DNA of 64,000 nt from Quinella sp. 1Q7 (GTDB lineage Bacteria > Bacillota > Negativicutes > Selenomonadales > Selenomonadaceae), in assembly GCA_015206805.1 (NCBI GenBank), contig JADEZP010000001.1, positions 219 through 64,218 on the forward strand. The letters are read 5' to 3'. This document shows, in pieces, positions 2,132 to 34,500 of the stretch (position 1 is the stretch's first letter; every line of letters starts with the position of its first letter). A model generated the notes under the pieces. The model did no database searches and was not told the origin of the DNA. It saw only the letters and a program-made list of their open reading frames with translations. The position numbers were made by a program, and so were the translations under genes.

Positions 2132-2794
2132 TCAAGTGCCGAAGTCGACGCTCGGCAAATTTTCCACAATCTCCAGCGTCCGCAAGCTGACCGTGATACT
2201 GCTCAATATCAAGTTCAAAATGTAGCGCGGATTGCCGTGCTCAATGCCCCACGCGTTCGCGTCGTTGACAATGCCGCTCGCCTTGTCGGTCTTGACGCGG
2301 TAACGGTCGATTATCCATTCAAGCGGACTGCGCCCGTTGACGACATAATCAAACGCTTGCGGCGGGATGTTGCGTATCTTGATGTGGCGGTTGTAAATCA
2401 GCGTCGTGCGGTCGTCCTTGGCAAAACGCAACTTGTCGACGCGGAAGTCGCCGTGCTCCGTGCCGATAACTTCAACGTCGGCGGGCGGCTGTGATTCGTA
2501 GTGCAAATGAATATTGGCAAGCTGACGACCTGCGCGGCTCAACTGCCAAAATTTTTCCGCGTCGGCAACCAAAATGATTCGCGTCAAAGATTTCTTCAGC
2601 TCGTTGGCAAAGCGTTCGCGGTAGCTCGGCAGGTGCAAAAATCCGTACACGTAATAGAACACGTCCTCGCGCTCAACGTCGTCGTAAAGTTCGCGGGCAC
2701 GTTGCAATACAAGACCGCTCACGCCGCTCAAGTCGCCGCCAACGAGATCCGCAACTTCCGCAAAACTTACGGCGGTGCGGCTTGCCTGCCTCAT
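2132..2794 (-). pseudogene. C-terminal remnant of a type ISP / Eco57I-like restriction-modification enzyme
   Basis: The last ~215 aa of the 2132..3292 minus ORF contain EDVFYYVYGFLHLPSYRERFANELKKSLTRI, AGRQLANIHLHYE, YVVNGRSPLEWIIDRYRVKTDKASGIVNDAN and NLILSSITVSLRTLEIV. This is the typical C-terminal domain of type ISP RM enzymes. The helicase, methylase and nuclease parts are absent. Upstream of ~2794 the ORF is only antisense read-through. Confidence 0.65.
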
Positions 2795-2824: not shown

Positions 2825-3442
2825 ATGTTCAACGACAACGACCTTGACTTCAGCGGCGAAGGAAAAACCATCATTATTGACGAGCCGCCGACTGACCCGT
2901 TGACCGCCGCGCAAGCCGAATACGACGCCGCACGCGCCGCCTCGCAAGCCGCCACTCAAGCCGTCATTGACGCCGATAACGTCCTGCGCCACGCTAAGGA
3001 GCTCGAATATCAAGCCGCCGAACGTGAGTCCGCCGCCTTCTTCAAGCTCGGCAACCTCAAGCGGGAAATCACTGACACCGTCGACCGCCTCAATGCCGCC
3101 GCGCCCGAAGGTTGGAGCGTCGTCCCTGACCCCGACAATAAAAAATTCTTCGTCAAGACGGGCGGTAAATCCGTCGCCGAAATCGATAGCCTCGCCCTCG
3201 CTAAGGTCTTGCCGCCCGATAAATTCTTCGCACGTTTCACGCCGCTGACTGACGACGAGCCGAACCAACGCTACGCCGACCAACTTTATCAAGAATACCT
3301 TGAGCTCCTCGATATGCGCGACAATCTGTCCGACGACCCCGAACGACTCAAAGTCATTGACGGGCTTATCAGAGACCTTGAACGCGAAATGCTTGCCGCA
3401 CGTCTCGACTTGCCTACATCAACTCCGACCTCCGCCTGCTAG
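2825..3442 (+). CDS. hypothetical acidic coiled-coil protein, possibly 5'-truncated
   Basis: Protein-like translation from ATG 2825 (MFNDNDLDFSGEGKTIIIDEPPTD...LIRDLEREMLAARLDL), ending at a terminator. No convincing SD. The ORF upstream of 2825 is antisense to the RM remnant. Confidence 0.4.
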   Translation: MFNDNDLDFSGEGKTIIIDEPPTDPLTAAQAEYDAARAASQAATQAVIDADNVLRHAKELEYQAAERESAAFFKLGNLKREITDTVDRLNAAAPEGWSVVPDPDNKKFFVKTGGKSVAEIDSLALAKVLPPDKFFARFTPLTDDEPNQRYADQLYQEYLELLDMRDNLSDDPERLKVIDGLIRDLEREMLAARLDLPTSTPTSAC

Positions 3443-3460: not shown

Positions 3461-3486
3461 GCCGCTCCGAACGGGGCGGTTTTTTA
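3461..3486 (+). terminator. rho-independent terminator
   Basis: GCCGCTCC-GAAC-GGGGCGGT hairpin followed by TTTTTAT. Overlaps the stop of the minus-strand 36-aa ORF. Confidence 0.55.
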
Positions 3487-3594
3487 TGGTTTAAACAGCC
3501 AAATCATTACGCCGACATAAATCGCAAACATTAAACCAGTTCCAATGTCCTGACCCGTGATTGTCAGCGTTGGGATTGTTATCGTTATACTCAT
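3484..3594 (-). CDS. 36-aa single-pass membrane peptide (cassette-boundary peptide, copy 1)
   Basis: GGAGG SD 4 nt before the ATG (3592-3594). Translation is MSITITIPTLTITGQDIGTGLMFAIYVGVMIWLFKP. A near-identical paralogue lies at 4908-5018. Below the ORF-track length cut-off. Confidence 0.5.
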   Translation of the reverse strand: MSITITIPTLTITGQDIGTGLMFAIYVGVMIWLFKP

Positions 3595-3607
3595 GGTGCC
3601 TCCTCAC

Positions 3608-3832
3608 TCAAAGTTTCGGTTTATTCGGCAATTCGTATTTATCGAACAGTGCCAAAAGTCGCCGCTTGTATTCTTCATGAACAGGCGCATAAGCTTCACG
3701 ATTGGTATCCAAACCTTGAATTGCTCCTTCCAACGCCAATTGCCGGCTTATTTTTTCCGCTTCGTCGTTAGACCATTTTATCAATGCTCGATATTCTTCA
3801 TTTGCTTTTCGCCAACGTTCTTCCAACGTCAT
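3608..3832 (-). CDS. putative immunity protein 1 of the MuF-type toxin cassette
   Basis: 74 aa from MTLEERW. The ATG overlaps the toxin stop as ATGA. The AGGAG SD sits inside the toxin GYRRW codons. Homologous to the 79-aa ORF at 5100-5339 (shared W-S..E.E.I, GLD.N.E.YA, FDKY.LP). Confidence 0.6.
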   Translation of the reverse strand: MTLEERWRKANEEYRALIKWSNDEAEKISRQLALEGAIQGLDTNREAYAPVHEEYKRRLLALFDKYELPNKPKL

Positions 3833-4878
3833 CGCAACCATCTCCTGTAACCAAAGCCTTTCGTCAACGCAAAATCTACAACTTGCCCGTGTCTGAAGGT
3901 ATATTCGTCGGCATTTTCTAACGTTACAATGTTGTCTATATCTTCGGAATTACGATTGAGTTCATAGATAAATCGTTCGTCAATGCCGCGAAGTTGCTCC
4001 AAATTGAAACGAGTAAACAATCGGCAATCTGACTCACTGAAAGTATATTCATTATCAGAGCCGACGGGGTGGTTATGCGTGACGATTGCTCCGTATAATT
4101 CATCACCGAGCTCTTCAATGGTCGGGAGCGTGTTTAAATCACCCGAACAATGATAAATATCACCGCGTCGAGTAATTATGACGGCGTGCTCAACGGGTGC
4201 CGTGACAATTTGCGCCTCGTAATGTTCCAAAGTTTTTTGAATAGCATTCGCCGTGACATTTTCGAGTTTGCCGATTAATTTTGGCGGAGTGCCCTGCGTG
4301 ACCGTCAGATTGATATTACCCGCCGCCAAACCAACTTTACCACCCGACGCCGCAGTAGGCAAGCGACCTGCCGACAAGTCGTCAATGACTTGTCGACCGC
4401 GCTGTCGTAACGGCGATTGCTCGTCGGCTTGACGTCGCGCGTCGAATTCCGCACGCCACGTATCAAGCGACTTCGTCTTGTCGATGTAAATTGCTTTCCA
4501 GTCGCGATAGCTCATATCGGCGGGCACGCGTCGGTAATGGTCGACGACTTCGCCGTTACTTAGCGTGATTTTTACTTTGGTGCCGTTGACTTCGCCGAAC
4601 GGTGTTTTGATTTTTTTGTCGCCCGATTCGTCAGCATCGAGACTGACTGATTTGCCCTTGACGCTGTCGCCGAAATCACGGGCGGCGCGTGTACCGTATT
4701 GGAGCCCGTCATAGGCGACGATAGTACAGCGGCAACGGGCATGCATTGGCGGAGCGTTCTCGCCCTGATTCATTTCCGACAACTTGTAAACTTCGCCGTC
4801 ACGTTCGCCGCAACGAGCGCACGTCCGACGATCCAACGTCGCCATAAATTGGTAGTGCGTGAATTCGGCTGTGCGCAT
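3829..4878 (-). CDS. 5'-truncated Phage_Mu_F (SPP1 gp7-like) C-terminal remnant fused to a putative toxin CT domain with a RadC/JAB-like HNHP motif
   Basis: 349-aa ORF. ATLDRRTCARCGERDGEVY...PPMHARCRCT is the C-terminal signature of MuF head-morphogenesis proteins. It is followed by a linker and a ~150-aa CT with E..(~40 aa)..THNHPVGSDNEYTFSESD. No SD at the start, and the N-terminal bulk of the MuF domain is missing. Confidence 0.65.
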   Translation of the reverse strand: MRTAEFTHYQFMATLDRRTCARCGERDGEVYKLSEMNQGENAPPMHARCRCTIVAYDGLQYGTRAARDFGDSVKGKSVSLDADESGDKKIKTPFGEVNGTKVKITLSNGEVVDHYRRVPADMSYRDWKAIYIDKTKSLDTWRAEFDARRQADEQSPLRQRGRQVIDDLSAGRLPTAASGGKVGLAAGNINLTVTQGTPPKLIGKLENVTANAIQKTLEHYEAQIVTAPVEHAVIITRRGDIYHCSGDLNTLPTIEELGDELYGAIVTHNHPVGSDNEYTFSESDCRLFTRFNLEQLRGIDERFIYELNRNSEDIDNIVTLENADEYTFRHGQVVDFALTKGFGYRRWLR

Positions 4879-4907
4879 TGCGTCGGCACTGGCGCGATTT
4901 TTTTCGC

Positions 4908-5018
4908 TTACCGTTTAAATAACCAAACCATCAGACCAACATACAACGCGAACATTAAAGTCGCTCCAATGTCCTGACCCGTGATTGTCAACGTCGGGAT
5001 TGTTATCGTTATACTCAT
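4908..5018 (-). CDS. 36-aa single-pass membrane peptide (cassette-boundary peptide, copy 2)
   Basis: GGAGG SD. Translation is MSITITIPTLTITGQDIGATLMFALYVGLMVWLFKR. DNA at 4930-5025 is nearly identical to 3505-3600. Confidence 0.5.
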   Translation of the reverse strand: MSITITIPTLTITGQDIGATLMFALYVGLMVWLFKR

Positions 5019-5099
5019 GGTGCCTCCAATAAAAAAAACGTCCTAAGGCGTTGTGATTGTATTTTTTGAAACAACATTAAACTCGAATGCACGTCAATA

Positions 5100-5339
5100 C
5101 TACCACAGCTTTAATCTTGTGTCGGGTGGCAAACCGTACTTATCGAAAATATTTTTCATTAGTGTGTTGACTTTTTTATTGTGTGACGCATAAATTTCCG
5201 AGTTGCCATCAAGACCGGGTGTAAGCTTTCCTAAACGCTTAAGTTCCGTTGTAATTCTTTCCTCTTCTTTGATACTCCAATCCAACAAGTCACGAATTTC
5301 TTTTACCGCGTTTACTTTACGTTTTTCTAAATCATTCAT
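5100..5339 (-). CDS. putative immunity protein 2 (orphan cassette)
   Basis: 79 aa. AGGAG SD 8 nt upstream, within the toxin GYRRW codons. 8-nt overlap with the upstream CT ORF. Homologous to immunity protein 1. Confidence 0.55.
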   Translation of the reverse strand: MNDLEKRKVNAVKEIRDLLDWSIKEEERITTELKRLGKLTPGLDGNSEIYASHNKKVNTLMKNIFDKYGLPPDTRLKLW

Positions 5340-6050
5340 GTCGCCATCTCCTATAACCGAATCCCAAAAATCGTGCCAGTTGTATATTTCTCAAGTGGCT
5401 ATTGGTAAACGTTTCTTCATCTCCTGCAACAACATCGTCTTCGCTGTCCAAGAACGCAGAATTACGATTTAATTCATATATAAATTTTTCGTCAATGCCG
5501 CGAAGTCGCGCCAATTTATAATTTTCAAATAAATACCTGTCTTTCAGGCTGAAAGAGTAGTCGTTGTCCGATCCGATAGGATGATTGTGCGTGACGATTG
5601 CCCCACGCAATTTGTCACCAAGCTCAACAATCGTATCAAGGTCATTCAAAGTACCTGTGCAATGATAAATATCGCCGCTCCGAGTGATAATTATTGCGTT
5701 TTCAACGAGCTCTTTAACTATCAACGGCTCGTAATAATCAAGTACACGCTTGATTTGCGCGGCGTCTTTAAAATCAATGGAGCCCATGTAATAAGGCGAT
5801 ATGCCGCTTGCGCCTAGAGCACTTGCTTTATCTCCCGCCAACAAGCCAACTTTACCACCCGCCGTCGGCTTAGGCAACTGACCTGCGGCAAGTTTATCGA
5901 TAATCGCTCGACCGCGCTGACGTAACGGCGATATAGACCGCCTTCCAATCGCGATAGCTCATATCGGCGGGCACGCGTCTGTAACGGTCGACGACTTCGC
6001 CGTCATGTTCGCCGCAACGCGCGCACATCCGACGACTCAACGCCTTGCAT
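5332..6050 (-). pseudogene. orphan or decayed MuF-toxin copy: intact CT2 domain behind a deletion-riddled MuF remnant
   Basis: The 181-aa ORF (5332-5877) is about half identical by eye to the CT of the 349-aa protein, including THNHPIGSDNDYSFSLKD and GFGYRRW. Region 5878-6050 aligns to 4340-4878 with two internal deletions and loses the frame. Confidence 0.6.
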
Positions 6051-6070
6051 ACAAATTCCCGTAGTGCTAT

Positions 6071-6098
6071 GAAAAAAAGCCCCGACTTGTTGTCAAGG
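6071..6098 (-). terminator. rho-independent terminator of the aminotransferase gene
   Basis: On the minus strand, GCCUUGAC-AACAA-GUCGGGGC followed by U7 (plus-strand A7 at 6071-6077). Confidence 0.55.
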
Positions 6099-6118
6099 CT
6101 CGTTGTTGTTGATTGATG

Positions 6119-7249
6119 TCACGGCTTGAAACTTTTGATTATGGCGCAAATTTTTCGGACGTCGTCCGCAGTCAAACCGCCGTACATCGGCAAACTCAAG
6201 ACCTGCTGCCCGACAACATTGGCGACGGGCAAATTGGCTGGACTCGACGAATTCAACTGACGATAGCACGTGAACTCACTGCACAGCGGGTGAAAATATT
6301 TTCGGGCGTAAACGTTGTAATCGCGCAGTGCCGCACAGACATAATCCCGCGAACGTCCGAAAATTTTTTCGTCGAAGCGCACGACGTAATACTGATGATT
6401 CAGCTTGACATTCGCCGCGCACTTGGGCATGAGCGTCAAGCCGTCGACGCCCGAAAGTTCCTCGTCGTAAACCGCGTGCAGACGAATTCGCTTTTGACGT
6501 TCAGCCTCCACGTAGCCGAGCATGATTCGCCCGACAGCCGCGCGAATTTCGTCGAGCTTGCCGTTGATGCCGGGCATAACAACTTCGTCCTCGTTCTTGA
6601 TGCCGAAATTTTTCAGCAGGTCAATCCGTTGCTTGACGTGTTCGTCGTTCATGGTGAGCGCACCGCCTTCAAGCGTGTGATAAAGTTTCGTCGCGTGGAA
6701 GCTGAACATCGAAATATCGCCGAACGTGCCGATACCGCGCCCGCCAATTTCAACGCCGAACGCGTGCGCCGCGTCGTAAACAACCTTCAAGCCGTAGCGG
6801 TCGGCAACATCCCGAATCGTCGCAACGTCGCAGGGCGTGCCGAAGACGTGCACAGCCAAAATCGCGGTCGTATGCGGAGTTATCATCGACTCAATCTTTG
6901 CGGCGTCAATGTTCATTGTCTCGGCGTCAACGTCGCAAAAAATCGGAGTGATGTTGTTCCAGCTCAAGACGTGCGGCGTCGCGGCGAATGTGAACGGAGT
7001 CGTTATGACCTCGCCGCTCAAGCGCAAACTTTGGCACGCAACCATCAGCGCGATTGTCCCGTTGTTGAACAGCGATAAATTCGGCACGCGCAAAAATTCC
7101 GTGAGCTCGCGCTCAAGCATTGTGTGTTGCGGACCGTTGTTGGTGAGCCACTTCGCCGCCCAGATATCGCGCAATTTTTCCGTGACTTCCTCGATTGTCG
7201 GGAAGACGGGTCGCGTCACGTAAATTCTTTCGGTGAACGGTTCAAGCAT
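6119..7249 (-). CDS. DegT/DnrJ/EryC1/StrS family PLP-dependent sugar aminotransferase
   Basis: 376 aa. Typical family layout with NNGTIAL, DAAHAFG and the PLP-lysine context FSFHATKL. SD AGGAGG upstream of the ATG. Confidence 0.85.
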   Translation of the reverse strand: MLEPFTERIYVTRPVFPTIEEVTEKLRDIWAAKWLTNNGPQHTMLERELTEFLRVPNLSLFNNGTIALMVACQSLRLSGEVITTPFTFAATPHVLSWNNITPIFCDVDAETMNIDAAKIESMITPHTTAILAVHVFGTPCDVATIRDVADRYGLKVVYDAAHAFGVEIGGRGIGTFGDISMFSFHATKLYHTLEGGALTMNDEHVKQRIDLLKNFGIKNEDEVVMPGINGKLDEIRAAVGRIMLGYVEAERQKRIRLHAVYDEELSGVDGLTLMPKCAANVKLNHQYYVVRFDEKIFGRSRDYVCAALRDYNVYARKYFHPLCSEFTCYRQLNSSSPANLPVANVVGQQVLSLPMYGGLTADDVRKICAIIKSFKP

Positions 7250-12950: not shown

Positions 12951-13567
12951 TTGCTTGAAATATTTTTGTCGCCGCGCTGAAAAGTTCACCATTGCTCGCG
13001 CCCGCGTGGAAAATTTTTGATAAGTCGTTGACGCGCACATCGGAGGCGGCTTACTCGACGATTGACGCCGCAGAATTTTTCTGTAAGCGATAATGTCGGG
13101 GACGCGGGCTTGACGAGCGGTTTGAGCGGCGTCGATATGACAAGCGACAATATCAAGGATTTGCAGAACAGCATTGCAAAACTTTTGTCGGGCGTGGAGT
13201 CGGCGTTTGTCACGTCGCTCGTCGGAATTTTTTTCGGGCTCGTTTACAGCGTCGCGCACCACAAATTGATTGTCGCGCTCCACGATAAAATTGCTCAACT
13301 GACTGACGCGCTCGACGAAAAATTTCCGCGCCGTTCCGCCGAAGATTGGCTGTCGAAAAATTTTTCCGAGGCTCAAACGCAATCGGCGGAATTTTTTCGG
13401 ACAGGGTTGGTGCACAAATGGATCGATTTTCAGCCGCGCTCGACAGATTTTCCGATACCATTGCTCAAAAGTTGTCGGACGCGCAAAAAATTTTCGACAC
13501 CACAATTGCGACCATGAAAGCCGCCGCTGACGCCAACGCCGCGCAAGTTACACGTATCGTCGAAAAT
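12951..13567 (+). pseudogene. MotA/ExbB-like (ZorA-like) remnant, multiply frame-disrupted and far too short
   Basis: AAGGAG SD directly after the kinase stop. Only the last MotA/ExbB-type TM helix (GVESAFVTSLVGIFFGLVYSV) and a short coiled-coil (AQMDRFSAALDRFSDTIAQKL...) remain. The reading frame changes 3>2>3>2 at T5/T6 runs (12963-67, 13076-80, 13392-97). Confidence 0.5.
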
Positions 13568-14266
13568 ATGAACGCCGCCGCCTGTAATAACGCCGTGCCC
13601 GATACGTTCACTGTCAGTATCAGCGACTTGATGTCGGGCTTATTGGCGATTTTTATTCTGGTGCTGTCGTATTTTATTTTGAACTTCACGCAGGCGACCG
13701 CGCAACTCACGCAAAACGACATCACGCGGGCGGAGCTGTTGCACTTCATGCAACGCGAACTTGAGCGCGAAGGAATCAAAGTCACCGTCGACGACCGCCA
13801 CGGCATATTGCGCATTGCGGAGGACGTACTGTTCGACGTGGGGCTTGCCGACGTGAAGCCGCAAGGTCAAATCGTCATACAAAAATTATCCGCAGTGCTT
13901 GCCGTCGCGCTGGAGGCTGAACAATTCAAAGGGCGCGTCGAAACGATTTTCATTGAAGGGCACACGGACAACGTCCCGATAAGCAACGGCGTGTTCCCGT
14001 CGAATTGGGAGCTGTCGGCGAAGCGGGCGATAAACACTTGGCTGACGATGAGCGGCGCGAATCCGCAACTTACGGCACTGCGCAACGATAAGGACGAAAT
14101 GATTTTTTCGGTGAGCGGTTACGCGGACACTCGACCAATCGCGGCGAACACGTCGGAGGCAGGACGCGGCGACAATCGGCGAATCGACATCCGATTTTCA
14201 ATGGCACCGCCGACCGAAGCGAATATGAGCATTGTTAAATTTGTTCGCAAGGAGTTGGCACAATGA
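13568..14266 (+). CDS. MotB/OmpA-family stator-like protein (ZorB-like)
   Basis: TM helix with conserved Asp (SISDLMSGLLAIFILVL). OmpA-like peptidoglycan-binding domain (FDVGLADVKPQG, IEGHTDNVPI, SNWELSAKRA, GYADTRPIA, NRRIDIRF). The ORF is open back to 13346, so the true start is uncertain. Confidence 0.7.
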   Translation: MNAAACNNAVPDTFTVSISDLMSGLLAIFILVLSYFILNFTQATAQLTQNDITRAELLHFMQRELEREGIKVTVDDRHGILRIAEDVLFDVGLADVKPQGQIVIQKLSAVLAVALEAEQFKGRVETIFIEGHTDNVPISNGVFPSNWELSAKRAINTWLTMSGANPQLTALRNDKDEMIFSVSGYADTRPIAANTSEAGRGDNRRIDIRFSMAPPTEANMSIVKFVRKELAQ

Positions 14267-15422
14267 GCCTGCGTGAATCGATTGACGACATGCGCGGCGT
14301 TGCGAAACGTTTGGAGGCGGCGACGTTTGCTCCCGACATGAACGCGCTGAAAATTTTCGTCGACAAGCTCGGCACCTTCGGCAAGCCCGTCGAAGTGAAT
14401 CCGGAGGACTTGAAAATTTTGGCGGCGAAATTTCTGCGCGGCGAACGGAATTTTTCGCGGCGTGAGCTGAAAAATTTGCCGTACATAATTTACGACGACG
14501 CGATTAATTTTGACGGCGCGAAAGAAATTCTGCGGCTTATGGATTTTACGTCGGCAAGTCATTTGCGGCGCGTGGTGAGCGTTTACCTTACGAATTACGA
14601 CGACTCGAACAAAACCGAACTTTTGCGGCGGAGTCTGAACGTTCTGCGCGGCGTCGACAATGTGCGGTTGCGGAAAATTTTTTCGGCGCGTGAAGAAATT
14701 TTTGGCGACAATCGCTTTGCGAACATGACGCGACTTTTCGCGCGGACAATGAGCGTCAACGGCGGCGCATTCGGAGAACTCGGCTTGGGCGACTACTTCA
14801 AGACCGCGAAGTTCATTCAAGCCGCGCTGACGAATTTTTTCCGCGCCGACGTGCCGCTTGAGGTGCAGTTCAAAATTCCGGACGAACTCGACGCCGAATA
14901 CGACACCTACCGAAATATTTTCGCCGCCGTTGCCGACTCGCTGATTCTGACCGTCGCCCGCGCAGGTGTCGGCAAGCGGAAATGTCTGACAATTTTTTAT
15001 AATCGGCTGGGCGATCCGCGTTTCGGCAACGGACGTTTTGCGTGGAATGAAGTTTCGGCGCGGGCTCGCGAAATTTTTCAGCGTTGGCTTGCCGAAGACG
15101 ACTTGAGGATTTTTTTTGAAATTATCCGCGGCTCGGCAGTCAGGCGCGGAAAATTGCCCGTCGCCTTGAAGACAAGCGCACTCACGGCGCGTTGCTCGGC
15201 AAATTGGACGCGGACAAAAGCGGCTTCCTTTTCCAAATCGGCGGCTTTATTTTCGCCGAATGGAGCCACGACGGCGCGTTGAGAGTTTATCCCGCGCGGC
15301 GCGTGCAAAATTGGAGCAATTTTTACAAGTCGGACATGATGGGCGTGCCCGTCGATTATCGGCAAGTTCATATCGGCGCGTGGCAAGCTAAAGTTCGCGC
15401 GTGGATTCAACGGAATTGTTGA
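14263..15422 (+). pseudogene. EH_Signature-like (ZorC-like) protein, frameshifted near 15121-15150
   Basis: ATGA overlap with the preceding gene. LGDPRFG..W..VSARAREIFQRWLAEDDLRIFFEII in frame 1 continues in frame 3 as ...FLFQIGGFIFAEWSHDGALRVY...WQAKVRAWI. Family assignment is from memory of ZorC/EH-signature proteins. Confidence 0.5.
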
Positions 15423-20421: not shown

Positions 20422-21573
20422 ATGGTCAACAGAATCATCTTGAACGAAACGTCGTATTTCGGACCCGGTGCGATTAAAGAAATTCCCGCCGAAATTCGCG
20501 GTCGCACCTGCAAGAAAGTCATGCTCGTCACCGACAAAGCCCTGCTCAAGTTCAAAGTCGCGACGAAAGTCACGGAGCTTTTGGCGGCGGAAGGCATCGA
20601 CTTCGAAATTTACGACAACGTCAAAGCCAATCCGACAATCGAAAACGTTCAAAGCGGAGTCGAATTCTGCAAACGTTGCGGCGCGGACATCATCGTTGCA
20701 GTCGGAGGCGGCTCGGCAATCGACACGAGCAAGGCAATCGCAATCATTATGACAAACCCCGAATTTGCCGACGTGCGCAGTCTTGAAGGCGTCGCGCCGA
20801 CAAAAAACAAATGCTTGCCGATTATCGCCGTCTCCACGACATCGGGAACTGCCGCCGAAGTCACGATTAACTACGTCATAACCGACGTTGAGCGCAACCG
20901 CAAATTCGTCTGCGTCGACCCGAAAGATATTCCCGTTGTCGCGATTGTCGATTCGGAAATGTGCGCCTCCATGCCGCCGAAACTTTGCGCCGCCACGGGT
21001 ATGGACGCGCTCGTTCACGCGATTGAAGGTTACATCACCAAAGGCGCGTGGGAGCTTACGGATATGGTGCACCTCAAGGCGATTGAAATTATTTCCAAAA
21101 ATCTGCGCCGTTCCGTCAAAGGCGACCCCGTCGGGCGTGAGCAAATGGCACTCGGTCAATATATCGCGGGCATGGGCTTTTCAAACGTCGGGCTCGGTAT
21201 CGATCACTCAATGGCGCACCCGTTGAGCGCGGTTTACGACATTCCGCACGGCACGGCTTGCGCGATTTTGCTTGCACCCGTGCTGAAGTTCAACGCTCCC
21301 GCAACCGCTGAACGTTACCGCGAAATTGCGCGGGCAATGGGCGTCGCGGGCGTCGACGATATGACGCAGGACGAATACCGCGCCGCCGCCATTGACGCCG
21401 TCGCCAAACTTAGCGCGGACGTCGGCATTCCTACGAAACTTTCCGAACTCGGCGTCAAGGCGGAGGACATCGACTTTTTGGCGGAGTCGGCTCTTGCGGA
21501 CGCCTGCACGCCCGGCAATCCCCGCGACGTGACTAAGGAACAAATCGCCGAAATTTATCGCTCAATCTTCTAA
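20422..21573 (+). CDS. fucO: iron-containing alcohol dehydrogenase, lactaldehyde reductase-like
   Basis: 383 aa from MVNRIILNETSYFG. Colinear with E. coli FucO over its whole length, with long stretches identical (NPEFADVRSLEG, TAAEVTINYVITD, RKFVCVDP, HAIEGYIT.GAW.LTD, MALGQY.AGMGFSNVGLG). GGGAGG SD. Confidence 0.85.
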   Translation: MVNRIILNETSYFGPGAIKEIPAEIRGRTCKKVMLVTDKALLKFKVATKVTELLAAEGIDFEIYDNVKANPTIENVQSGVEFCKRCGADIIVAVGGGSAIDTSKAIAIIMTNPEFADVRSLEGVAPTKNKCLPIIAVSTTSGTAAEVTINYVITDVERNRKFVCVDPKDIPVVAIVDSEMCASMPPKLCAATGMDALVHAIEGYITKGAWELTDMVHLKAIEIISKNLRRSVKGDPVGREQMALGQYIAGMGFSNVGLGIDHSMAHPLSAVYDIPHGTACAILLAPVLKFNAPATAERYREIARAMGVAGVDDMTQDEYRAAAIDAVAKLSADVGIPTKLSELGVKAEDIDFLAESALADACTPGNPRDVTKEQIAEIYRSIF

Positions 21574-23676
21574 CCGACACATCACGCAATAAAAAATCCC
21601 GTCGCTCGATTGAACGGCGGGAATTTTTTTACTTGAAGCGGATTTGCAGGTTGAGGTCGATGAAGAATTCTGTGCCCCCCCCCAGTCAACTTCGGGGTAA
21701 ACAGTGGCGAACGTGTGTTTACGAGTGTCGGGCGTCTCCAAGCGCGTTTCGTTGAGCAGGTAAGTCTCAAAGTCGTCGTGATTCTGCAACGGGTACAGCA
21801 CGATGTCGGCATTGCGCTTGACGACGATACAACCGCCGCTCGCCTCGATTCGACCGTTCCAAACTTCGGCGGGACGCAAACCCAATGCGACGTTGCGCAG
21901 AAATTTTTTGATGTTGACGCGGTAAAAATTCTTGACGCCGACTTTGAGCGGGTCGACATCTTCAAGTCGCGTCGCAAGTTCGGAGCAACCGCTGATTCGT
22001 TCGACGTAAAACAGCTTGACCATTTCGCCGAGGATTCTGCCCATTTTCGAATCAATCAGGCGCAGATTGTTCGCGAAGGTCGAATTTTTTACCGCGACGA
22101 ACTCCAGCCGCTCAATCCGGCTCAAGCGGTCGATAATCTTCGTGCGCGTGTCGATGGCGTTGATTTTTTCGGCAAGCGCGGAATTCACGCCGACGGCTCG
22201 AAATCTGAAATTCGTCGCGCCCGAAGCGTTGAACAGCGTCGGCTTGCCGCCAACGTAAGATTTAATCGAGTAACCGACGGGCTTATCGGAATCGGTCGGC
22301 GCGTCGCGAATCGTCAGCTCAATGTCGGACTTCCTGTCGGAGGGCGATTTAATCGTCTCCAAGCCGAGCACGTCCAAAATATCCGTCGCGCCGTGAATTT
22401 CAAACGCATGACCTTTGCCGCGCCGTATGCCGTCCAAAATCGTATCCGCCATTGCCGCAAGGTCGTCGGCGGAAATTTTTTTTATGCGGTCGCCGTCCCG
22501 ATACAGCGTGACGAAATTTTTCAGCCGCCGCAGTTCCAACGCGGAATGATTTTTGTAAGCGCAACGGGCTTGCATGACGGGCAGTCGCCGAATTTTCCCG
22601 TCAATCACGTTCGTAATCGCGCCGTCGGCAATCAGCCGCAACAGCACGTAAAATTCGCTCCACTCGCCCTTGTTGTACGCCATTGGTTCAAGCACGCTCC
22701 TTATTTCGGCGGCAATAGCCTCGACGACGTTAATCGACACGGTGTTGCCGAATTGCCTGTACAAATGCGTGTCGCTCAAGCTCAAGCGGAAGTCGTCGGG
22801 GAAGCCCTGAAGTCGCGCCCACTCTCGCGGCGTCAGCTTGCGGATATTTTCGTCGTTAATCGCGCCGTGAATTTTCGTCGTCGGAATTTTTGAATGAGCT
22901 CGCGCATCGACAATCAAGTTTCGTTCGCGCCCCATGCCGCCGCAGACGAGAGCACTTGCCACGCCGTCAAGCGATTTAATTTCGTAGCCGAAGCCGTTGC
23001 CCGCCGCCTCGTGCCGTTGACGGTGTCGGCGCAGTGTCGCAAGATAAACGTCGCTCAAATAATATTTCGCGGGTATCGGCGCGGCGTCGATTATGTCGGC
23101 GATTGTGCTGACTTCGCGATTCGGCGCGGGGAACGTAAATTTTTCGGGCGCGATGTCTCGGCGGAAGCAGACGATATAAATCCGTTCGCGATTTTGCGGC
23201 AAGCCGAAGTCCCGACTGTTCAAGACCGCGTGAAAAATTTTGTAGCCGATTTGCTCAAAAGCCGCGCATATGATTTTGAACGTGCGCCCTCCGTCGTGAT
23301 TGACCAGCCCTTTGACGTTCTCGCAGAAAATTATTTTCGGCTTGTGATAATCGCAAATTCTCACGACGTCCAAAAACAATGTGCCGCGACAGGTGCCGTG
23401 ATAATCGTCGTCGAAGCCGCCGCGTTTGCCCGCGATTGAAAACGCTTGGCACGGGAAGCCCGCCAAACATATATCGAACGGCGGAATGTCCTCGGCGGCA
23501 ATTTGCGTGATGTCGCCTTCAATCGTGATGTCGGCAGGAAAATTTTCGGCGTAAGTCGCGCGGGCGTGAGCGTCAATCTCGCTGACGAAAACCGTTTGCG
23601 CGTCGTCAAAGGCACGCTCGAAGCCCAGCCGTATGCCGCCGATCCCCGCGAACAAGTCAATCATTTTGCAGGTCAA
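21562..23676 (-). CDS. single ORF encoding a DNA (cytosine-5) methyltransferase (aa 1-~331) and an HpaII-family restriction endonuclease (from Met332 at 22683); REase C-terminus is frameshifted at a G9 tract
   Basis: m5C MTase motifs DLFAGIGG, GFPCQAFS, ENVKGL, QNRERIY and FGNTVS. Then MAYNKGEWSEFYVLLRLIADG, typical of the R.HpaII N-terminus, with an internal AAGGAG 13 nt before Met332. After the G9 tract the +1 frame reads GTEFFIDLNLQIRFK-stop (stop at 21629-21631), which looks like the native end. Confidence 0.75.
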   Translation of the reverse strand: MTCKMIDLFAGIGGIRLGFERAFDDAQTVFVSEIDAHARATYAENFPADITIEGDITQIAAEDIPPFDICLAGFPCQAFSIAGKRGGFDDDYHGTCRGTLFLDVVRICDYHKPKIIFCENVKGLVNHDGGRTFKIICAAFEQIGYKIFHAVLNSRDFGLPQNRERIYIVCFRRDIAPEKFTFPAPNREVSTIADIIDAAPIPAKYYLSDVYLATLRRHRQRHEAAGNGFGYEIKSLDGVASALVCGGMGRERNLIVDARAHSKIPTTKIHGAINDENIRKLTPREWARLQGFPDDFRLSLSDTHLYRQFGNTVSINVVEAIAAEIRSVLEPMAYNKGEWSEFYVLLRLIADGAITNVIDGKIRRLPVMQARCAYKNHSALELRRLKNFVTLYRDGDRIKKISADDLAAMADTILDGIRRGKGHAFEIHGATDILDVLGLETIKSPSDRKSDIELTIRDAPTDSDKPVGYSIKSYVGGKPTLFNASGATNFRFRAVGVNSALAEKINAIDTRTKIIDRLSRIERLEFVAVKNSTFANNLRLIDSKMGRILGEMVKLFYVERISGCSELATRLEDVDPLKVGVKNFYRVNIKKFLRNVALGLRPAEVWNGRIEASGGCIVVKRNADIVLYPLQNHDDFETYLLNETRLETPDTRKHTFATVYPEVDWGGAQNSSSTSTCKSASSKKIPAVQSSDGIFYCVMCRLED
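21576..21630. terminator. conserved intergenic element copy 1: ACATCACGCAATAAAAAATCCC plus hairpin plus T-run (bidirectional terminator)
   Basis: GACACATCACGCAATAAAAAATCCC, then hairpin TCCCGTCGCTCGATTGAACGGCGGGA, then T7. Lies between convergent fucO and the REase gene. Confidence 0.6.
21675..21683 (-). repeat. homopolymeric G9 tract (C9 on plus strand) inside the REase 3' end
   Basis: Counted directly: tgtg-ccccccccc-agtc. G10 or G7 would restore the native-looking C-terminus. G9 gives a 38-aa nonsense extension running through the terminator into the fucO end. Confidence 0.9.
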
Positions 23677-31555: not shown

Positions 31556-34500
31556 ATGGATAAACTTTATGATTGGTCTGATTTTGCGGAGAAATATAAT
31601 CTTATACCTGCTGAAAATGAAGACGATACTTATAAATCTTTTGGTTCGTATAAGTTATACGGTAAGATTTCCGGAACCCATCCATGGTATAGTAGCGGTT
31701 GGCACTATGAGAATATTTCGAGGACATACAATCTTTATATAATCCGTCCCTATGAAGATGGTGCAAGAATTGAGGGCGGCTCTGGTAACGCTGGTTATAT
31801 CTCTGAGACCGGTGAATGTGAATGGTATGATTCAGACAATGACTATTTGTGGAAACGAATTTACGATTATTCATATGAAATGAAAATTAGTAATAGTTTT
31901 AAAAATATTTTATTTAATGGTTGCACAGGTGTGGATTGGTTTCATAATAGCGTCAGTAAATTCAGTGTGCCCGACAATGTGACAATTAACGGGAAAGACG
32001 GAGACGACTCTTTACTCAACTATGGCGGATCAAATGTAAAAATCAGCGGCGGTTCCGGTGATGATCTAATTAGCAATGAAGCTACGGTTATATGGATCAG
32101 CGAAAATGAATACATCCGGTATTATCCTACCGATACCATACTCGACGGCGGTGTGGGTGCCGACACAATCACCAACAACGGCGCGAACGTCACAATCAAC
32201 GGCGGCGCGGGTAACGATTACATTTACAACGGCGGCTACTGGGACAGCGTCACGATTGACGGCGGGCGACGGAAACAACACCATTAACAACGGTCTGCAC
32301 AAAGACGACCGTGATTATTCCGGCGGCGATAACGTCACGATAACTGCGGGTAGCGGCGGCGACGTAATTCAAAACTTCAACGCCTCGAACATCTCGATTG
32401 ACGCGGGCGACGGCAACAATCTGGTGAATATCGGCGGCGACGCTTCAAAGCTTACCGTAAAGGGCGGCACGGGCAACGATTCGGTCTTCTTGTACACGCC
32501 GAAAAATGGAAGTGCTGTTGACTCCGAGACGGGCGAAATTCCCAACGACGGCAACTTTGGCGGCACGAACGTTTCGATTAACGCCGTCGGCGGAAAAAAT
32601 CTTGTGTACGTCGCGGACTCGTGGAATTATGTTACGGTCGAGGGCGGCAACGATTCACAAGGCATCGACCTTATCTCCAACGGCGGCGACAATGCCTTTC
32701 TTCGCGGCAACGCGGGCAATGATAAAATCGTGAACACGGGCGATTATGCGATAATCTTCGGCGGCGACAACGGCGACATCATCGAAAATTACGGCGACAA
32801 CGTCTACATTGCGGGCGACGACGCCAACGGTAAGGGCAGCAGCAACTTCGGCGATTACATCTACACCGACAAAGGCTCGAATGTCACGATTGACGGCGGC
32901 GCTGGCAACGATAAAATCACGGCTTTCCACGACGTTAAAGCATCAATCGTCGGCGGCGCAGGTAACGACGAAATTAATCTTGAACGGCTGACGGTCGACG
33001 ATCTGACCAAAATTTCGTTGAAAGCTTTCGCGCTCGTTACATTTAAAATCGTTTCGGAAAAAGTCATCAGCGATATTATCAGCAACAAACTGCTTAAAGG
33101 TGTGCCGGTTGCCACCAACGCCGCAGACTGGTTGCTTGCTTTGGGTGAGATGATTCCCGGATATTACGGTGCTCCGTTCAAAATCGCAAATGCCGCCAAG
33201 GACGTTTACGGCGCAATTAAAGACTTCAACAAGTACAAATATTATTTCGCCGACAAATCGACAAGCACGGTCGCAGGCGGCGCGGGCGACGATACGATAA
33301 TCGTCGACGGTATCGCTCCGCGTGTCTTTGAATATTCCGACGGCGACGGCAACGACGTTTATTATCGCTTCAACGACAACACGTTTAACGTTGATGATTT
33401 TGAGCTGTCGACGTTGCGGATTAAAAAGGGTCGCATAAAGCACGTCGCTGTTATCGGCAATGACGTTACGTTTGTCGTCGGCAAAGGCTCAATCAAACTC
33501 GTCAACGGCGCGAACAAAAAATTCAAGCTCATTGAGGACGAAGAGGGCGGCACCGTTACGACGCGCGCTTACGGTTTGGACATAAACACGGGTAAAGTCG
33601 TTTGCTCAATCTTCGGCTCGGCGCAAAACGACAACCTTCAGGACAAAGTCGGCATTGAATTCGCCGCAACAAGCTCAACCGTCACTGCAATTTCATCGTC
33701 GACGCAAAAAACGATTGGCACAATCTTTGATCACGTAATTTACGGTTACGACGGTCGCGACACTTTGAGCGGCAATGACAAGGACGATACGATTCACGGC
33801 GGCGACGGCTCCGATAAAATCTTCGGCGAGGGCGGAAATGATGTCCTTTACGGCGAAGGCGGCAACGATGAAATTTACGGCGACGCGGGCAAGGATACCA
33901 TTTACGTCGGCGACAGCGATACGGCTTTTGGCGGCGACGGCGACGATTTCATCAAAAACAACGGCGATTACGTCAAGATTTTCGGCGACGACGGTAACGA
34001 CAAAATCTTCAACTCGGACACCTACAGCCACAACGTCACAATCAGCGGCGACGACGGTCACGACACGATAGCGGTTCACGGCATGAAAATATCGGTCAAC
34101 GGCGGCACGGGCAACGATTCAATCCAATTGGGTTATGTCTCTTCGACCGACAACGTAAGCTCAACCGTAACAGTCGACGCGGGCGCGGATAACGATACGA
34201 TTCGCAGTTACATTTCTTACGTCACGTTGACGGGCGGCGCGGGCAACGACGTCATAAGTCTTTCCGCCGACGCGAAGAAAAATTATATCAGATACGCTTC
34301 GGGCGACGGCTTCGATACGATTTCCGGGCTCAACGACGACGACACGCTTAAAATCACTTCGGGCACTGTCGACACGGTTACGGTCGCGGGCTCGGACGTT
34401 ATCTTGACGGTCGGAGACGGCTCCCTTCGTTTCAAGAACTTCAAGGGCAAAGAATTCAAAGTTACTCACGCCAAAGGCGAAGTCGTCAAATACAAACTTT

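What the first reader, a model, noticed from the sequence alone, without database searches (positions are those of the whole stretch)
3484..6050. Tandem MuF-type polymorphic-toxin cassettes (truncated MuF + CT / immunity / 36-aa TM peptide) outside any prophage
Read on the minus strand, the order is:
- decayed MuF remnant + CT2 (6050-5332)
- imm2 (5339-5100)
- TM peptide (5018-4908)
- MuF C-terminal remnant + CT1 (4878-3829)
- imm1 (3832-3608)
- TM peptide (3594-3484)

The 349-aa ORF starts inside the conserved C-terminal motif of Phage_Mu_F/SPP1 gp7 proteins (LDRRTCARC...PPMHARCRCT), lacks an SD and lacks the rest of that domain. The two CT domains are about half identical and both end in GFGYRRW. 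The codons of that motif carry the AGGAG SD of a small overlapping ORF.

The two small ORFs are homologous to each other but far more diverged than the CTs, the pattern expected for toxin/immunity diversification. Region 5878-6050 aligns to 4340-4878 with two internal deletions, so cassette 2 is an orphan. No portal, terminase or capsid genes are in the window. These are therefore MuF-toxin modules stranded in the chromosome, and both appear to lack a functional delivery domain.
Basis: partly seen in the sequence, partly recalled or inferred. Interest (0 to 1): 0.7.

Follow-up and report, generated by a model that had tools for sequence, protein, structure and literature searches.

The report
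Stranded phage-head toxin/immunity gene cassettes
Two tandem leftovers of a phage head-protein toxin gene, each a truncated toxin plus a small putative antidote gene, sit in ordinary chromosome of a rumen Selenomonadaceae-like bacterium; they are the MuF-family counterpart of the orphan toxin/immunity cassettes known from other bacterial toxin systems.

Summary
Window 3484-6050 (minus strand) holds two tandem cassettes. Each has a 5'-truncated MuF C-terminal motif, a C-terminal domain (CT), an overlapping small ORF and a 36-aa membrane peptide. No portal, terminase or MuF N-terminus is in the window.

New findings:
- The CT is a RadC-like JAB/MPN domain with invariant E, HNHP, S and D. It has no Pfam model.
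- The CT family has about 1,100 50%-identity cluster representatives. The domain is always at the protein's C-terminus, fused to MuF1, MuF2 or VG15 head-protein domains.
- In about two thirds of phage loci the next ORF belongs to the imm1/imm2 family, including the complete Fusobacterium phage FNU_1P.
- Close relatives carry different cassette sets at the same DegT-flanked site, and similar arrays sit at other housekeeping sites.
- One metagenome contig pair (L093/L094) shows a CT swapped between a longer upstream MuF gene and a downstream orphan, through the repeated MuF-C homology.
- The toxin ORFs lack ribosome-binding sites and cassette 2 is frameshifted. The small ORFs keep strong SDs.

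Verdict: these are orphan MuF polymorphic-toxin/immunity cassettes. This is a new member of a known kind, and its location outside prophages is not mentioned in the MuF-toxin papers I read. Toxicity and immunity are untested.

The parts
6070..6101 (-). Intrinsic terminator of the upstream DegT-family aminotransferase gene (6119-7249). It marks the left boundary of the array.
   Evidence: Terminator scan. The same sequence occurs in relatives L003 and L086.
6048..6069 (-). Tiny relic of a more N-proximal part of MuF (codons HYGNLY, about residue 135-145 of a full-length MuF). It ends at a TATG microhomology where an internal deletion joined it to the MuF C-terminal motif.
   Evidence: In relative L086 the same DegT terminator and the junction 'gaatttgtatg' run on into a 478-aa MuF-Tox-PL1 gene. 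The reading of the codons against L005's MuF is my own.
5894..6047 (-). Decayed MuF C-terminal motif and linker remnant of cassette 2 (48-aa ORF 5894-6040). It has a 243-nt in-frame deletion and a 68-nt frameshifting deletion.
   Evidence: Repeat families D2, D3 and D5. It is 96% identical to the linker of relative L003.
5332..5877 (-). CT2: RadC-like JAB domain ORF (181 aa). TTG start, no Shine-Dalgarno sequence, and out of frame with the MuF remnant.
   Evidence: 51% identical to CT1. It carries the invariant E/HNHP/S/D columns. An intact in-frame version (237 aa) exists in L089 at 96% nucleotide identity.
5100..5339 (-). imm2: 79-aa putative immunity protein. An AGGAG Shine-Dalgarno sequence lies inside the GYRRW codons of CT2, and the ORF overlaps CT2 by 8 nt.
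   Evidence: 38% identical to imm1. Member of the small-ORF family found directly downstream of this CT in phage loci.
4908..5018 (-). 36-aa peptide with a C-terminal hydrophobic helix (copy 2), preceded by GGAGG.
   Evidence: 85% nucleotide identity to copy 1 over 120 nt. Against copy 1, dS is 0.57 and dN/dS is 0.18. Also present in L088, L089 and L090.
4720..4878 (-). 5'-truncated MuF C-terminal motif (LDRRTCARC...PPMHARCRCT) at the start of the 349-aa ORF. ATG at 4878 with no Shine-Dalgarno sequence. MuF homology continues about 8 codons upstream, to the stop codon of the peptide gene.
   Evidence: PF04233 positions 63-111 of 112 and TIGR01641. tblastn alignments reach 4902. Junction alignment A3.
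4363..4719 (-). Linker ('pre-toxin') region shared by MuF toxins of this lineage that carry different CTs. It is the probable homology arm for recombination.
   Evidence: 88-89% amino-acid identity to the three L003 cassettes, which end in different CTs. Shared with P0004, P0005 and P0007.
3829..4362 (-). CT1: RadC-like JAB/MPN domain. Predicted catalytic residues in the 349-aa protein are E230, H268, H270, S281 and D284.
   Evidence: AlphaFold model with pLDDT 86 and pTM 0.81. Top PDB fold hit is RadC 2qlc. BFVD hits are MuF minor capsid proteins, RadC, MPN and metalloprotease entries. hhalign motif alignment. Invariant columns.
3608..3832 (-). imm1: 74-aa putative immunity protein, a two-helix hairpin. 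It overlaps the CT1 stop by ATGA, with AGGAG 9 nt upstream.
   Evidence: Family alignment shows the MTLEERW start. Model with pLDDT 89. Homologs lie directly downstream of the CT in L001 and in IMG/VR loci.
3484..3594 (-). 36-aa peptide with a C-terminal hydrophobic helix (copy 1), preceded by GAGGAGG.
3461..3480 (+). Hairpin followed by a T-run. It is the terminator of the convergent ORF at 2825-3442 and the right end of the array.
   Evidence: The same segment follows cassettes in L086, L087 and L090.
2825..3442 (+). Convergent ORF of unknown function that accompanies MuF-toxin arrays in other genomes.
   Evidence: 50% identical homolog at the right end of the L005 array. Remnants in L086, L087 and L090. 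Only 2 database homologs and no family hit.

Best explanation
The region is an array of two orphan (5'-truncated, displaced) MuF polymorphic-toxin/immunity cassettes. It lies in a hypervariable chromosomal locus just downstream of a DegT-family aminotransferase gene.

Origin (shown by comparison). A MuF-toxin gene once abutted the DegT terminator. It lost its 5' part stepwise, and cassettes behind it were added, replaced and deleted by recombination through the repeated ~0.5-kb MuF-C/linker sequence.

Module (shown by linkage, function inferred). In phages the full-length protein is a head protein encoded next to the portal gene. Its C-terminal domain is a RadC-like JAB domain, a predicted metal-dependent hydrolase whose substrate (nucleic acid or peptide) is unknown. 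The overlapping 65-96-aa helical-hairpin ORF is its cognate inhibitor. It is translationally coupled to the CT, so the producing cell is protected.

State in this window (inferred). The toxin ORFs have no MuF N-terminal part and no ribosome-binding site, and one is frameshifted. They are probably silent and cannot be loaded into capsids. The immunity genes and the 36-aa peptide genes keep strong SDs and intact frames.

Likely present roles (inferred):
- Retained immunity against MuF-JAB toxins brought in by phage particles of competitors.
- A reservoir of alternative CT/immunity pairs that can be recombined into a full-length MuF gene.
For: Truncation and absence of packaging genes.

Module conserved in real phages:
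- L001 has terminase, SPP1-type portal, a 534-aa MuF-CT, then a 74-aa imm homolog.
- Fusobacterium phage FNU_1P has terminase, portal, a 'minor capsid protein' ending in this CT, an unannotated 85-aa imm-family ORF, then scaffold and capsid genes.
- In about 55 of 84 CT-bearing ORFs, the adjacent ORF belongs to the imm family.

Polymorphic-toxin behaviour:
- The same CT is fused to PF04233, PF06152 and PF25310 N-termini.
- The same MuF-C/linker is fused to JAB, Tox-PL1 and HExxH-type CTs, each followed by a different small ORF.
- The CT family has 1,096 cluster representatives at E<=0.001. In the 150 best hits listed, the match lies at the protein's C-terminal end.

Hypervariable locus:
- Flanking genes are 95-98% identical to L003, with dS 0.05-0.09.
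- The array content differs, and linker dS is 0.27-0.35.
- L086 keeps a longer MuF at the identical DegT junction.

Recombination through MuF-C repeats:
- L094 equals L093 with the upstream gene's CT replaced by the third cassette's JAB CT. The crossover lies in a ~200-nt repeat.
- L003's three linkers are 97-100% identical to each other.

Expression signals: SDs are present for imm and the peptide and absent for the CT ORFs (sequence).

Decay concentrated in toxin ORFs: window cassette 2, L088 cassette 2, L089 cassette 2 and the L005 first gene are frameshifted, while every imm ORF seen is intact.

JAB fold.
Against: - No experiment shows toxicity of the CT or neutralisation by the small ORF.
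- CT1 is an intact 349-codon ORF with an ATG, and dN/dS against relatives is about 0.2. This is also compatible with translation. It may instead only reflect selection before the cassette was stranded.
- No full-length MuF recombination partner is visible, because only this 64-kb window of the genome is available.
- The promoter scan found no convincing minus-strand promoter for the immunity genes, so their expression is inferred from SDs and intact frames only.
- Similarity to RadC is weak at the fold level (Foldseek E 0.017, TM 0.32-0.44). It is not detectable by Pfam or by a PDB sequence profile search.
- The role of the 36-aa peptide is unexplained.
Confidence: 0.66

Rival explanations
1. 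The truncated ORFs are active, domesticated stand-alone toxin-antitoxin or abortive-infection pairs. The MuF-C/linker-CT protein is translated from its own start codon and held in check by the small ORF. No delivery is needed.
For: - The 349-aa ORF is intact with an ATG.
- Starts of the form MRTAEFTHYQF, MRTARF..., MRTAGF... and MKAAGF... recur in independent contexts, including a single cassette with its own upstream intergenic region in L087.
- dN/dS is about 0.2.
Against: - Neither CT ORF has a Shine-Dalgarno sequence, while the neighbouring small ORFs have strong ones.
- Four toxin ORFs (window cassette 2, L005 first gene, L088 cassette 2, L089 cassette 2) among the roughly dozen array cassettes read in full are frameshifted at the linker.
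- 5' breakpoints differ between contexts and retain non-coding MuF relics.
- No PADLOC match.
- The recurrent 'start' is simply a conserved Met of full-length MuF (AAMKAAEF in P0007).
Confidence: 0.12
2. The C-terminal JAB domain is not an antibacterial toxin. It is a phage effector or assembly accessory carried in the head, for example to process host or phage nucleic acid or to counter defences on injection. The small ORF is its chaperone or timing inhibitor. On this view the window copies are functionless prophage debris.
For: - The domain is widespread at the end of head proteins in phage contigs.
- Iyer et al. 2017 (PMC5512222) argue that MuF fusions are effectors delivered to the host, and that RadC-type JAB domains process nucleic acids.
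- Jamet et al. 2017 (PMC5576092) also consider low-toxicity roles in the lysis/lysogeny decision.
Against: - Debris alone does not explain why intact small ORFs with SDs persist while toxin ORFs decay.
- It does not explain arrays recurring at several housekeeping sites (L005, L087, L091, L093).
- It does not explain cassettes being exchanged faster than the flanks diverge.
- CT swapping among unrelated enzymatic domains, each with its own small partner, is the signature of toxin/immunity systems.
Confidence: 0.18
3. The MuF-C motif plus linker is a minimal capsid-targeting signal. The truncated proteins are then still loaded into heads of a co-resident or infecting phage, so the chromosome sends toxins out in someone else's particles.
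For: - All independent truncations keep the CxxC...CRC motif and linker.
- L005 and L093 carry longer MuF-toxin genes with no portal or terminase nearby.
Against: - No evidence that this segment binds portal or DNA.
- No SD on the toxin ORFs.
- Retention of the segment is equally explained by its role as a recombination arm.
Confidence: 0.04

Closest known systems
MuF polymorphic toxins of temperate phages (Jamet et al. 2017, PMC5576092; MuF-capsid system of Zhang et al. 2012, PMC3482391)
   Same: - MuF (PF04233) motif followed by a variable C-terminal enzymatic domain and a small downstream ORF of under 150 aa.
- The same CT occurs on different MuF families.
- Full-length relatives sit immediately after the portal gene.
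   Different: - Only the last ~49 of 112 MuF profile positions remain here.
- There is no portal or terminase.
- The genes sit between housekeeping genes.
- Jamet et al. report MuF toxins exclusively in phages and prophages. Their text does not contain the words 'orphan' or 'truncated'.
- The CT (RadC-like JAB) matches no Pfam model, including any toxin-domain model.
Orphan cdiA-CT/cdiI, rhs-CT/rhsI and mafB-CT cassettes downstream of full-length polymorphic toxin genes (from my knowledge of that literature; the general principle is stated in Zhang et al. 2012)
   Same: - 5'-truncated toxin fragments keep a stretch of the conserved pre-toxin region.
- They lack translation initiation signals.
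- Each has its own immunity gene, and they are arranged in tandem.
- The CT can be moved into the upstream full-length gene by homologous recombination (L093/L094).
   Different: - No full-length gene heads the array in this window.
- The delivery vehicle of the parent family is a phage capsid, not a secretion system.
RadC and the toxin JAB domains Tox-JAB-1 and Tox-JAB-2 (Zhang et al. 2012; Iyer et al. 2017)
   Same: - Predicted JAB/deaminase-like fold.
- Conserved E, HxH, S and D in the same structural positions.
- C-terminal position in polymorphic toxins.
   Different: - No Pfam family of any kind matches the CT, even at permissive E-values.
- There are 10 rather than 7 residues between HxH and S.
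- It is linked to a different immunity family, a two-helix hairpin.
Minor capsid protein of Fusobacterium phage FNU_1P (MZ503612, QYC52328)
   Same: It ends in the same CT family (ct.hmm E 3e-28) and is followed by an imm-family ORF (E 3e-25).
   Different: It is a full-length 521-aa protein in an intact packaging module. It is 30% identical to CT1. The small ORF is not annotated in the record.
Acquired interbacterial defence (orphan immunity) islands of gut Bacteroidales (from my knowledge; not tested here)
   Same: Chromosomal arrays that keep immunity genes without a working cognate toxin delivery gene.
   Different: Those arrays protect against T6SS effectors and are moved by integrases. 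Here toxin fragments are retained and no recombinase is seen.

Membership tests
MuF polymorphic toxin (Jamet et al. 2017) | Complete N-terminal MuF domain (PF04233, PF06152, MuF3 or MuF4) | tested here: not met
   Only profile positions 63-111 of 112 are present. The first ~240 aa of full-length relatives have no match in the window.
MuF polymorphic toxin (Jamet et al. 2017) | Gene lies in the DNA-packaging module, next to portal or terminase genes, inside a (pro)phage | tested here: not met
   Neighbours are a DegT aminotransferase, an M48 peptidase and fab genes. No packaging genes were found in the window.
MuF polymorphic toxin (Jamet et al. 2017) | Variable C-terminal extension carrying a toxin domain that is shared with other N-terminal contexts | tested here: met
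   The CT is fused to PF04233, PF06152 and PF25310 N-termini. The same linker carries Tox-PL1 and HExxH-type CTs. Toxic activity itself was not tested.
MuF polymorphic toxin (Jamet et al. 2017) | Small ORF (<150 aa) immediately downstream as candidate immunity | tested here: met
   imm1 and imm2 overlap the CT stop codon. The family is conserved next to the CT in about 55 of 84 loci.
Orphan polymorphic-toxin CT/immunity cassette | 5'-truncated toxin gene retaining homology to the conserved region upstream of the CT | tested here: met
   About 0.5 kb of MuF-C/linker is retained. It is 88-89% identical at the protein level to the linkers of other cassettes.
Orphan polymorphic-toxin CT/immunity cassette | Toxin fragment lacks translation initiation signals while the immunity gene keeps them | tested here: met
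   By inspection: no purine-rich motif upstream of ATG 4878 or TTG 5877. AGGAG or GGAGG lies upstream of imm1, imm2 and both peptide genes. Expression was not measured.
Orphan polymorphic-toxin CT/immunity cassette | Located downstream of a full-length toxin gene of the same family | tested here: not met
   The array starts at the DegT terminator with a decayed remnant. Relatives L086, L005 and L093 have longer or complete MuF genes at the head of such arrays.
Orphan polymorphic-toxin CT/immunity cassette | The CT can replace that of the full-length gene by recombination through the shared region | tested here: met
   Shown for related loci L093 and L094, not for this genome. The crossover lies within a ~200-nt MuF-C repeat.
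JAB/MPN (RadC-like) domain | JAB fold | tested here: inconclusive
   The model is confident (pLDDT 86). The top PDB hit is RadC 2qlc, but only at E 0.017, probability 0.91 and TM 0.32/0.44. Several RadC, MPN and deubiquitinase hits in BFVD have E 1e-3 to 1e-2. There is no sequence-profile hit.
JAB/MPN (RadC-like) domain | Motif E ... HxH ... S-x2-D at the strand and helix positions of JAMM enzymes | tested here: met
   E66, H104, H106 and D120 are invariant and S117 is nearly invariant in 31 sequences. They lie before strand 67-71, at the end of strand 101-105 and at the start of helix 118-126. hhalign aligns THNHPVGSDNEYTFSESD with RadC VHNHPSGDVQ---PSNAD.
JAB/MPN (RadC-like) domain | Metal-dependent hydrolase activity | not testable with these tools
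   Needs biochemistry.
Type II toxin-antitoxin or known anti-phage defence system | Match to a known defence or TA protein family | tested here: not met
   No PADLOC, Pfam or NCBIfam match for the CT or the imm proteins.

The most novel reading that the evidence does not exclude
These arrays are chromosomal immunity islands against toxins injected from phage capsids. Rumen Selenomonadaceae would stockpile, exchange and keep expressed the small inhibitor genes (and perhaps the 36-aa membrane peptide) of many MuF toxins. This would let them survive toxin-loaded particles released by competitors' prophages. The silent toxin fragments would serve as homology arms that capture new cassettes. That would be a capsid-delivered counterpart of the acquired interbacterial defence islands known for T6SS effectors. 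It would also give the first natural evidence that MuF toxins act between cells.
Probability: 0.25. Interest if true: 0.7.

Novelty: new member of a known kind. Interest (0 to 1): 0.45.

Why it matters
MuF toxins are a large family with little experimental work behind them. They have been described as exclusive to (pro)phages.

How they act is still a hypothesis. The open points are whether they are really packed into heads, whether they act as antibacterial toxins, and whether cells need immunity against incoming copies.

Arrays that keep immunity genes intact while the toxin genes decay, at several chromosomal sites and with rapid cassette turnover, are indirect population-genetic evidence that these immunity genes are under selection outside the phage. 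The arrays also supply matched toxin/immunity pairs for direct tests, for example CT1/imm1 and CT2/imm2, which are 51% and 38% identical.

The work also defines an unannotated CT family of about 1,100 cluster representatives (RadC-like JAB) and its partner family. Current annotation misses the partner: the small ORF is unannotated in phage FNU_1P.

Tried and rejected
- Pfam, NCBIfam, PHROGs and PADLOC on CT2, imm1, imm2 and the peptides gave nothing significant. The USP7_ICP0_bdg, FixQ and DUF5822 hits are below cut-off and are treated as noise.
- A PDB sequence-profile search with the CT alignment gave only a chance hit to an RNA polymerase alpha subunit.
- Pfam on all 31 CT sequences at E<=10 gave no RadC or JAB family.
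- A fold search with imm1 gave only generic helical hairpins, none significant.
- The genome-contig scan with the 349-aa protein found only two loci, both from one Selenomonadaceae MAG. The source genome itself was not found.
- The homolog search for the convergent ORF (2825-3442) gave only 2 short hits, so its function stays unknown.
A degenerate DNA pattern scan of metagenomes found only two contigs, both of them these same arrays.
- I considered that the many short minus-strand ORFs at 42-64 kb might be a prophage. I rejected this: they lie inside one giant repetitive plus-strand frame and have no Pfam or PHROG hits.
- I considered a ubiquitin-like partner for the JAB domain. I rejected this because imm1 is an all-helical hairpin.
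- I considered a thr/ile-type leader peptide for the I/T-rich start of the 36-aa ORF. I did not pursue it. The context, the hydrophobic C-terminal helix and dN/dS of 0.18 argue for a small membrane protein.

Full report
**Observation.** On the minus strand of window 3484-6050 the ORFs are exactly as described. The 349-aa ORF (3829-4878) matches Pfam Phage_Mu_F only over profile positions 63-111 of 112 (residues 5-53; E 3.6e-11). It matches TIGR01641 (SPP1 gp7) over positions 54-107 of 109, and PHROG minor-head-protein families from their position ~250 onward. Full-length relatives of 509-540 aa align to the window only from their residue ~240. Their N-terminal halves match nothing in the 64 kb. 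CT1 and CT2 are 51% identical, and the small ORFs are 38% identical.

The remnant upstream of CT2 is collinear with cassette 1 in three blocks. This implies a 243-nt in-frame deletion at a 10-nt microhomology and a 68-nt frameshifting deletion. CT2 (TTG start) is therefore cut off from any MuF reading frame.

Both CTs end in GFGYRRW. Its codons carry AGGAG 8-9 nt before the small ORF's ATG, and the ORFs overlap by ATGA or by 8 nt.

**Surroundings.** The flanks are ordinary chromosome: DUF4127, a DegT aminotransferase, an M48 peptidase, fabK-acpP-fabG, a histidine kinase, comEC, kdtA-lpxK, glyS and carAB. No packaging or capsid gene was found. The stretch from 42083 to the window end is one repetitive open frame of more than 7,306 codons, so the short minus-strand ORFs there are spurious (no hits). 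Next to the array lie a convergent ORF of unknown function (2825-3442) and a C-terminal fragment of a Type ISP/IIG restriction enzyme (2132-2722).

**What the CT is.** An alignment of 31 CT sequences (A1) has these invariant positions, in A1 numbering: E57, E66, H79, H104-N105-H106-P107 and D120. S117 is nearly invariant.
- The AlphaFold model is confident (pLDDT 86, pTM 0.81).
- The model places E66 just before a strand, HNH at the end of a strand, and S/D at the start of the next helix. That is the layout of JAMM/MPN enzymes.
- The best PDB fold match is RadC of Chlorobium tepidum (2qlc; probability 0.91, but E 0.017).
- In the viral structure library the best matches are MuF-type 'minor capsid proteins' (E down to 5e-13). 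These are followed by RadC, MPN, deubiquitinase and metalloprotease entries.
- hhalign against the RadC sequence aligns THNHPVGSDNEYTFSESD with VHNHPSGDVQ---PSNAD.
- No Pfam or PDB sequence profile detects the relationship.

I therefore call it a RadC-like JAB domain with about 0.75 confidence. [quoted passage not shown] RadC-type JABs have been proposed to act on nucleic acids rather than on ubiquitin-like tails (PMC3482391, PMC5512222).

**The CT is a mobile C-terminal module of phage head proteins.**
- An exhaustive profile search finds 1,096 50%-identity cluster representatives at E<=0.001 and 141 at E<=1e-30. In the 150 best hits listed, the match lies at the protein's C-terminal end, and lengths cluster around 400-600 aa and 120-300 aa.
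- N-terminal partners are PF04233 (MuF1), PF06152 (MuF2) and PF25310 (VG15).
- Eighty IMG/VR contigs carry the CT.
- In metagenomic phage L001 the order is terminase, SPP1-type portal, a 534-aa MuF-CT, then a 74-aa ORF homologous to imm1 and imm2.
- In the complete Fusobacterium phage FNU_1P the annotated minor capsid protein, between the portal and scaffold genes, ends in this CT. An unannotated 85-aa ORF overlapping its stop codon belongs to the imm family.
- An iterative HMM seeded with imm1, imm2 and the L001 ORF recognises the ORF immediately after the CT in about 55 of 84 CT-bearing ORFs. Most of the remaining CT ORFs either have no ORF within that distance (some of those loci end just after the CT) or are followed by a different short ORF.
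- imm1 is predicted as a two-helix hairpin (pLDDT 89) with no informative structural neighbour.

Tight, translationally coupled linkage of a small partner specific to the CT is the standard signature of a toxin/immunity pair. Toxicity itself is not shown.

**The locus in relatives.** Contig L003 is 95-98% identical to the window across HK-fabG-acpP-fabK-M48-DegT and into the first ~50 nt of the MuF remnant. After that it carries three cassettes. All start at ...RTCARCGERDG... and all have a near-identical ~155-aa MuF-C/linker. Their ends differ:
- A Tox-PL1/Gln_amidase CT with an 80-aa ORF.
- An unrelated CT with a 72-aa ORF.
- A JAB CT, 81% identical to the window's 349-aa ORF in the database search, although the contig ends before its 3' end.

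L086 has the same DegT terminator and the same junction (gaatttgtatg). There it continues into a 478-aa MuF-Tox-PL1 gene that retains MuF from about residue 135. The window and L003 version is therefore a further internal deletion at a TATG microhomology.

L088, L089 and L090 are metagenome contigs holding window-like cassettes at 96-99% identity in other combinations. L089 includes an intact in-frame dMuF-CT2.

Synonymous divergence between window and L003 is 0.05-0.09 in the flanking genes but 0.27-0.35 in the linker. L003's three linkers differ from each other by only 0.02-0.08. The cassettes are therefore exchanged and homogenised faster than the chromosome diverges.

Similar arrays lie at other housekeeping sites in related metagenomic genomes:
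- L005, between kdsB and purM. It has a MuF with a complete N-terminus but no portal.
- L087, between a flavodoxin gene and a radical-SAM gene.
- L091, after a dehydrogenase gene (NAD_binding_2/F420_oxidored) that lies just past the pyrH-frr-uppS-cdsA-dxr-rseP block.
- L093 and L094, after larC.

L094 equals L093 except that ~3 kb is missing. As a result the upstream, longer MuF gene now ends in the JAB CT and imm of L093's third cassette. The crossover lies in a ~200-nt repeat of the MuF C-terminal motif. This is a direct example of CT switching between an upstream full-length gene and an orphan.

**Functional state in the window (inference).** Neither CT ORF has a ribosome-binding site. imm1, imm2 and both 36-aa ORFs have AGGAG, GGAGG or GAGGAGG at proper spacing. 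Across the arrays seen, frameshifts occur in toxin ORFs (window cassette 2, L005 first gene, L088 and L089 second cassettes), and never in an imm ORF.

dN/dS of about 0.2 for linker and CT may reflect selection in functional phage copies before stranding. It does not prove translation here. The simple promoter scan is uninformative.

**The 36-aa peptide.** Both copies are intact and 85% identical in DNA. The first 54 nt are almost identical. dS is 0.57 and dN/dS is 0.18, though from only 18 differences. The peptide is absent from all 80 viral loci. It was found only in these arrays. In L003 and L088 a 100-aa ORF takes its place behind a shared 41-nt intergenic segment. It is probably a real small membrane protein, but I cannot assign it a role.

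**Comparison with the literature.** Jamet et al. 2017 define MuF toxins and report them exclusively in temperate phages and prophages. In their data 96% of muf genes lie in prophages or remnants. Their text never mentions orphan or truncated modules, or JAB domains. Zhang et al. 2012 describe the MuF capsid route, MuF-Tox-PL1 fusions, JAB toxins and the general rule that polymorphic toxins vary by recombination with stand-alone cassettes. A search for MuF together with 'orphan' found nothing relevant.

The finding is therefore the MuF-family instance of a well-known organisation. It comes with a new CT/immunity family and an unusual location with no delivery gene.

**Verdict.** Novelty: new member of a known kind. 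Interest is moderate (0.45). The result is expected in principle. It is still useful because it gives natural evidence for selection on immunity to capsid-borne toxins, and it provides clean reagent pairs for testing the MuF-toxin hypothesis.

Noticed in passing
window 42083-64000 (+): A single open reading frame of more than 7,306 codons runs off the window end. It is built of in-frame repeats, with spacings such as 1494, 1503, 4320 and 7317 nt. It is probably a giant repetitive surface or adhesin-like protein. The ORF lister omits it because it has no stop codon inside the window.
   Followed up: partly
window 2132-2722 (-): An isolated C-terminal fragment of a Type ISP/IIG restriction-methyltransferase. 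It matches PF18135 positions 171-342 of 342, and the last ~200 of ~1,640 positions of a PADLOC IIG model. It lies next to the toxin array and is probably a pseudogene.
   Followed up: partly
window 2825-3442 (+); L005 13299-14009 (-): A convergent ORF of unknown function, together with its terminator, accompanies MuF-toxin arrays at different chromosomal sites (L005, L086, L087, L090). This suggests the arrays derive from one type of element. The ORF has only 2 database homologs.
   Followed up: partly
window 13346-15282 (+): Adjacent genes match ZorB (MotB/OmpA-like, E 2e-71) and ZorC (EH-signature, E 1e-10) of Zorya. No obvious ZorA lies upstream, where the preceding gene is a histidine kinase. 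This may be a partial or variant defence system.
   Followed up: no
window 21562-23676 (-): One 704-aa ORF combines a C5 cytosine DNA methylase (PF00145) with an HpaII restriction endonuclease domain (PF09561).
   Followed up: no
window 32076-35930 (+): A 1,284-aa protein with seven RTX calcium-binding repeat stretches (HemolysinCabind).
   Followed up: no
L093 3806-8225 versus L094 892-2093: Two rumen metagenome contigs share the same larC flank. They differ by a ~3-kb segment, so the upstream MuF gene carries either a zincin-like CT or the JAB CT of the third cassette. The crossover lies in the MuF-C repeat.
   Followed up: yes
L095 (Fusobacterium phage FNU_1P, MZ503612) 4735-4992: An 85-aa ORF overlaps the stop codon of the minor capsid protein gene and is not annotated in the record. 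It belongs to the imm1/imm2 family (E 3e-25).
   Followed up: yes
window 3541-3603 and 4965-5027: The Shine-Dalgarno sequence and the first 54 nt of the two 36-aa peptide genes differ at only 2 positions, while the 3' halves differ much more. This could reflect gene conversion or a constraint at the nucleic-acid level.
   Followed up: no
L005 10926-11588; L086 2989-3207: A DNA methyltransferase gene (DPPY motif) is embedded in the MuF-toxin array of L005. A truncated copy of it is present in L086.
   Followed up: no
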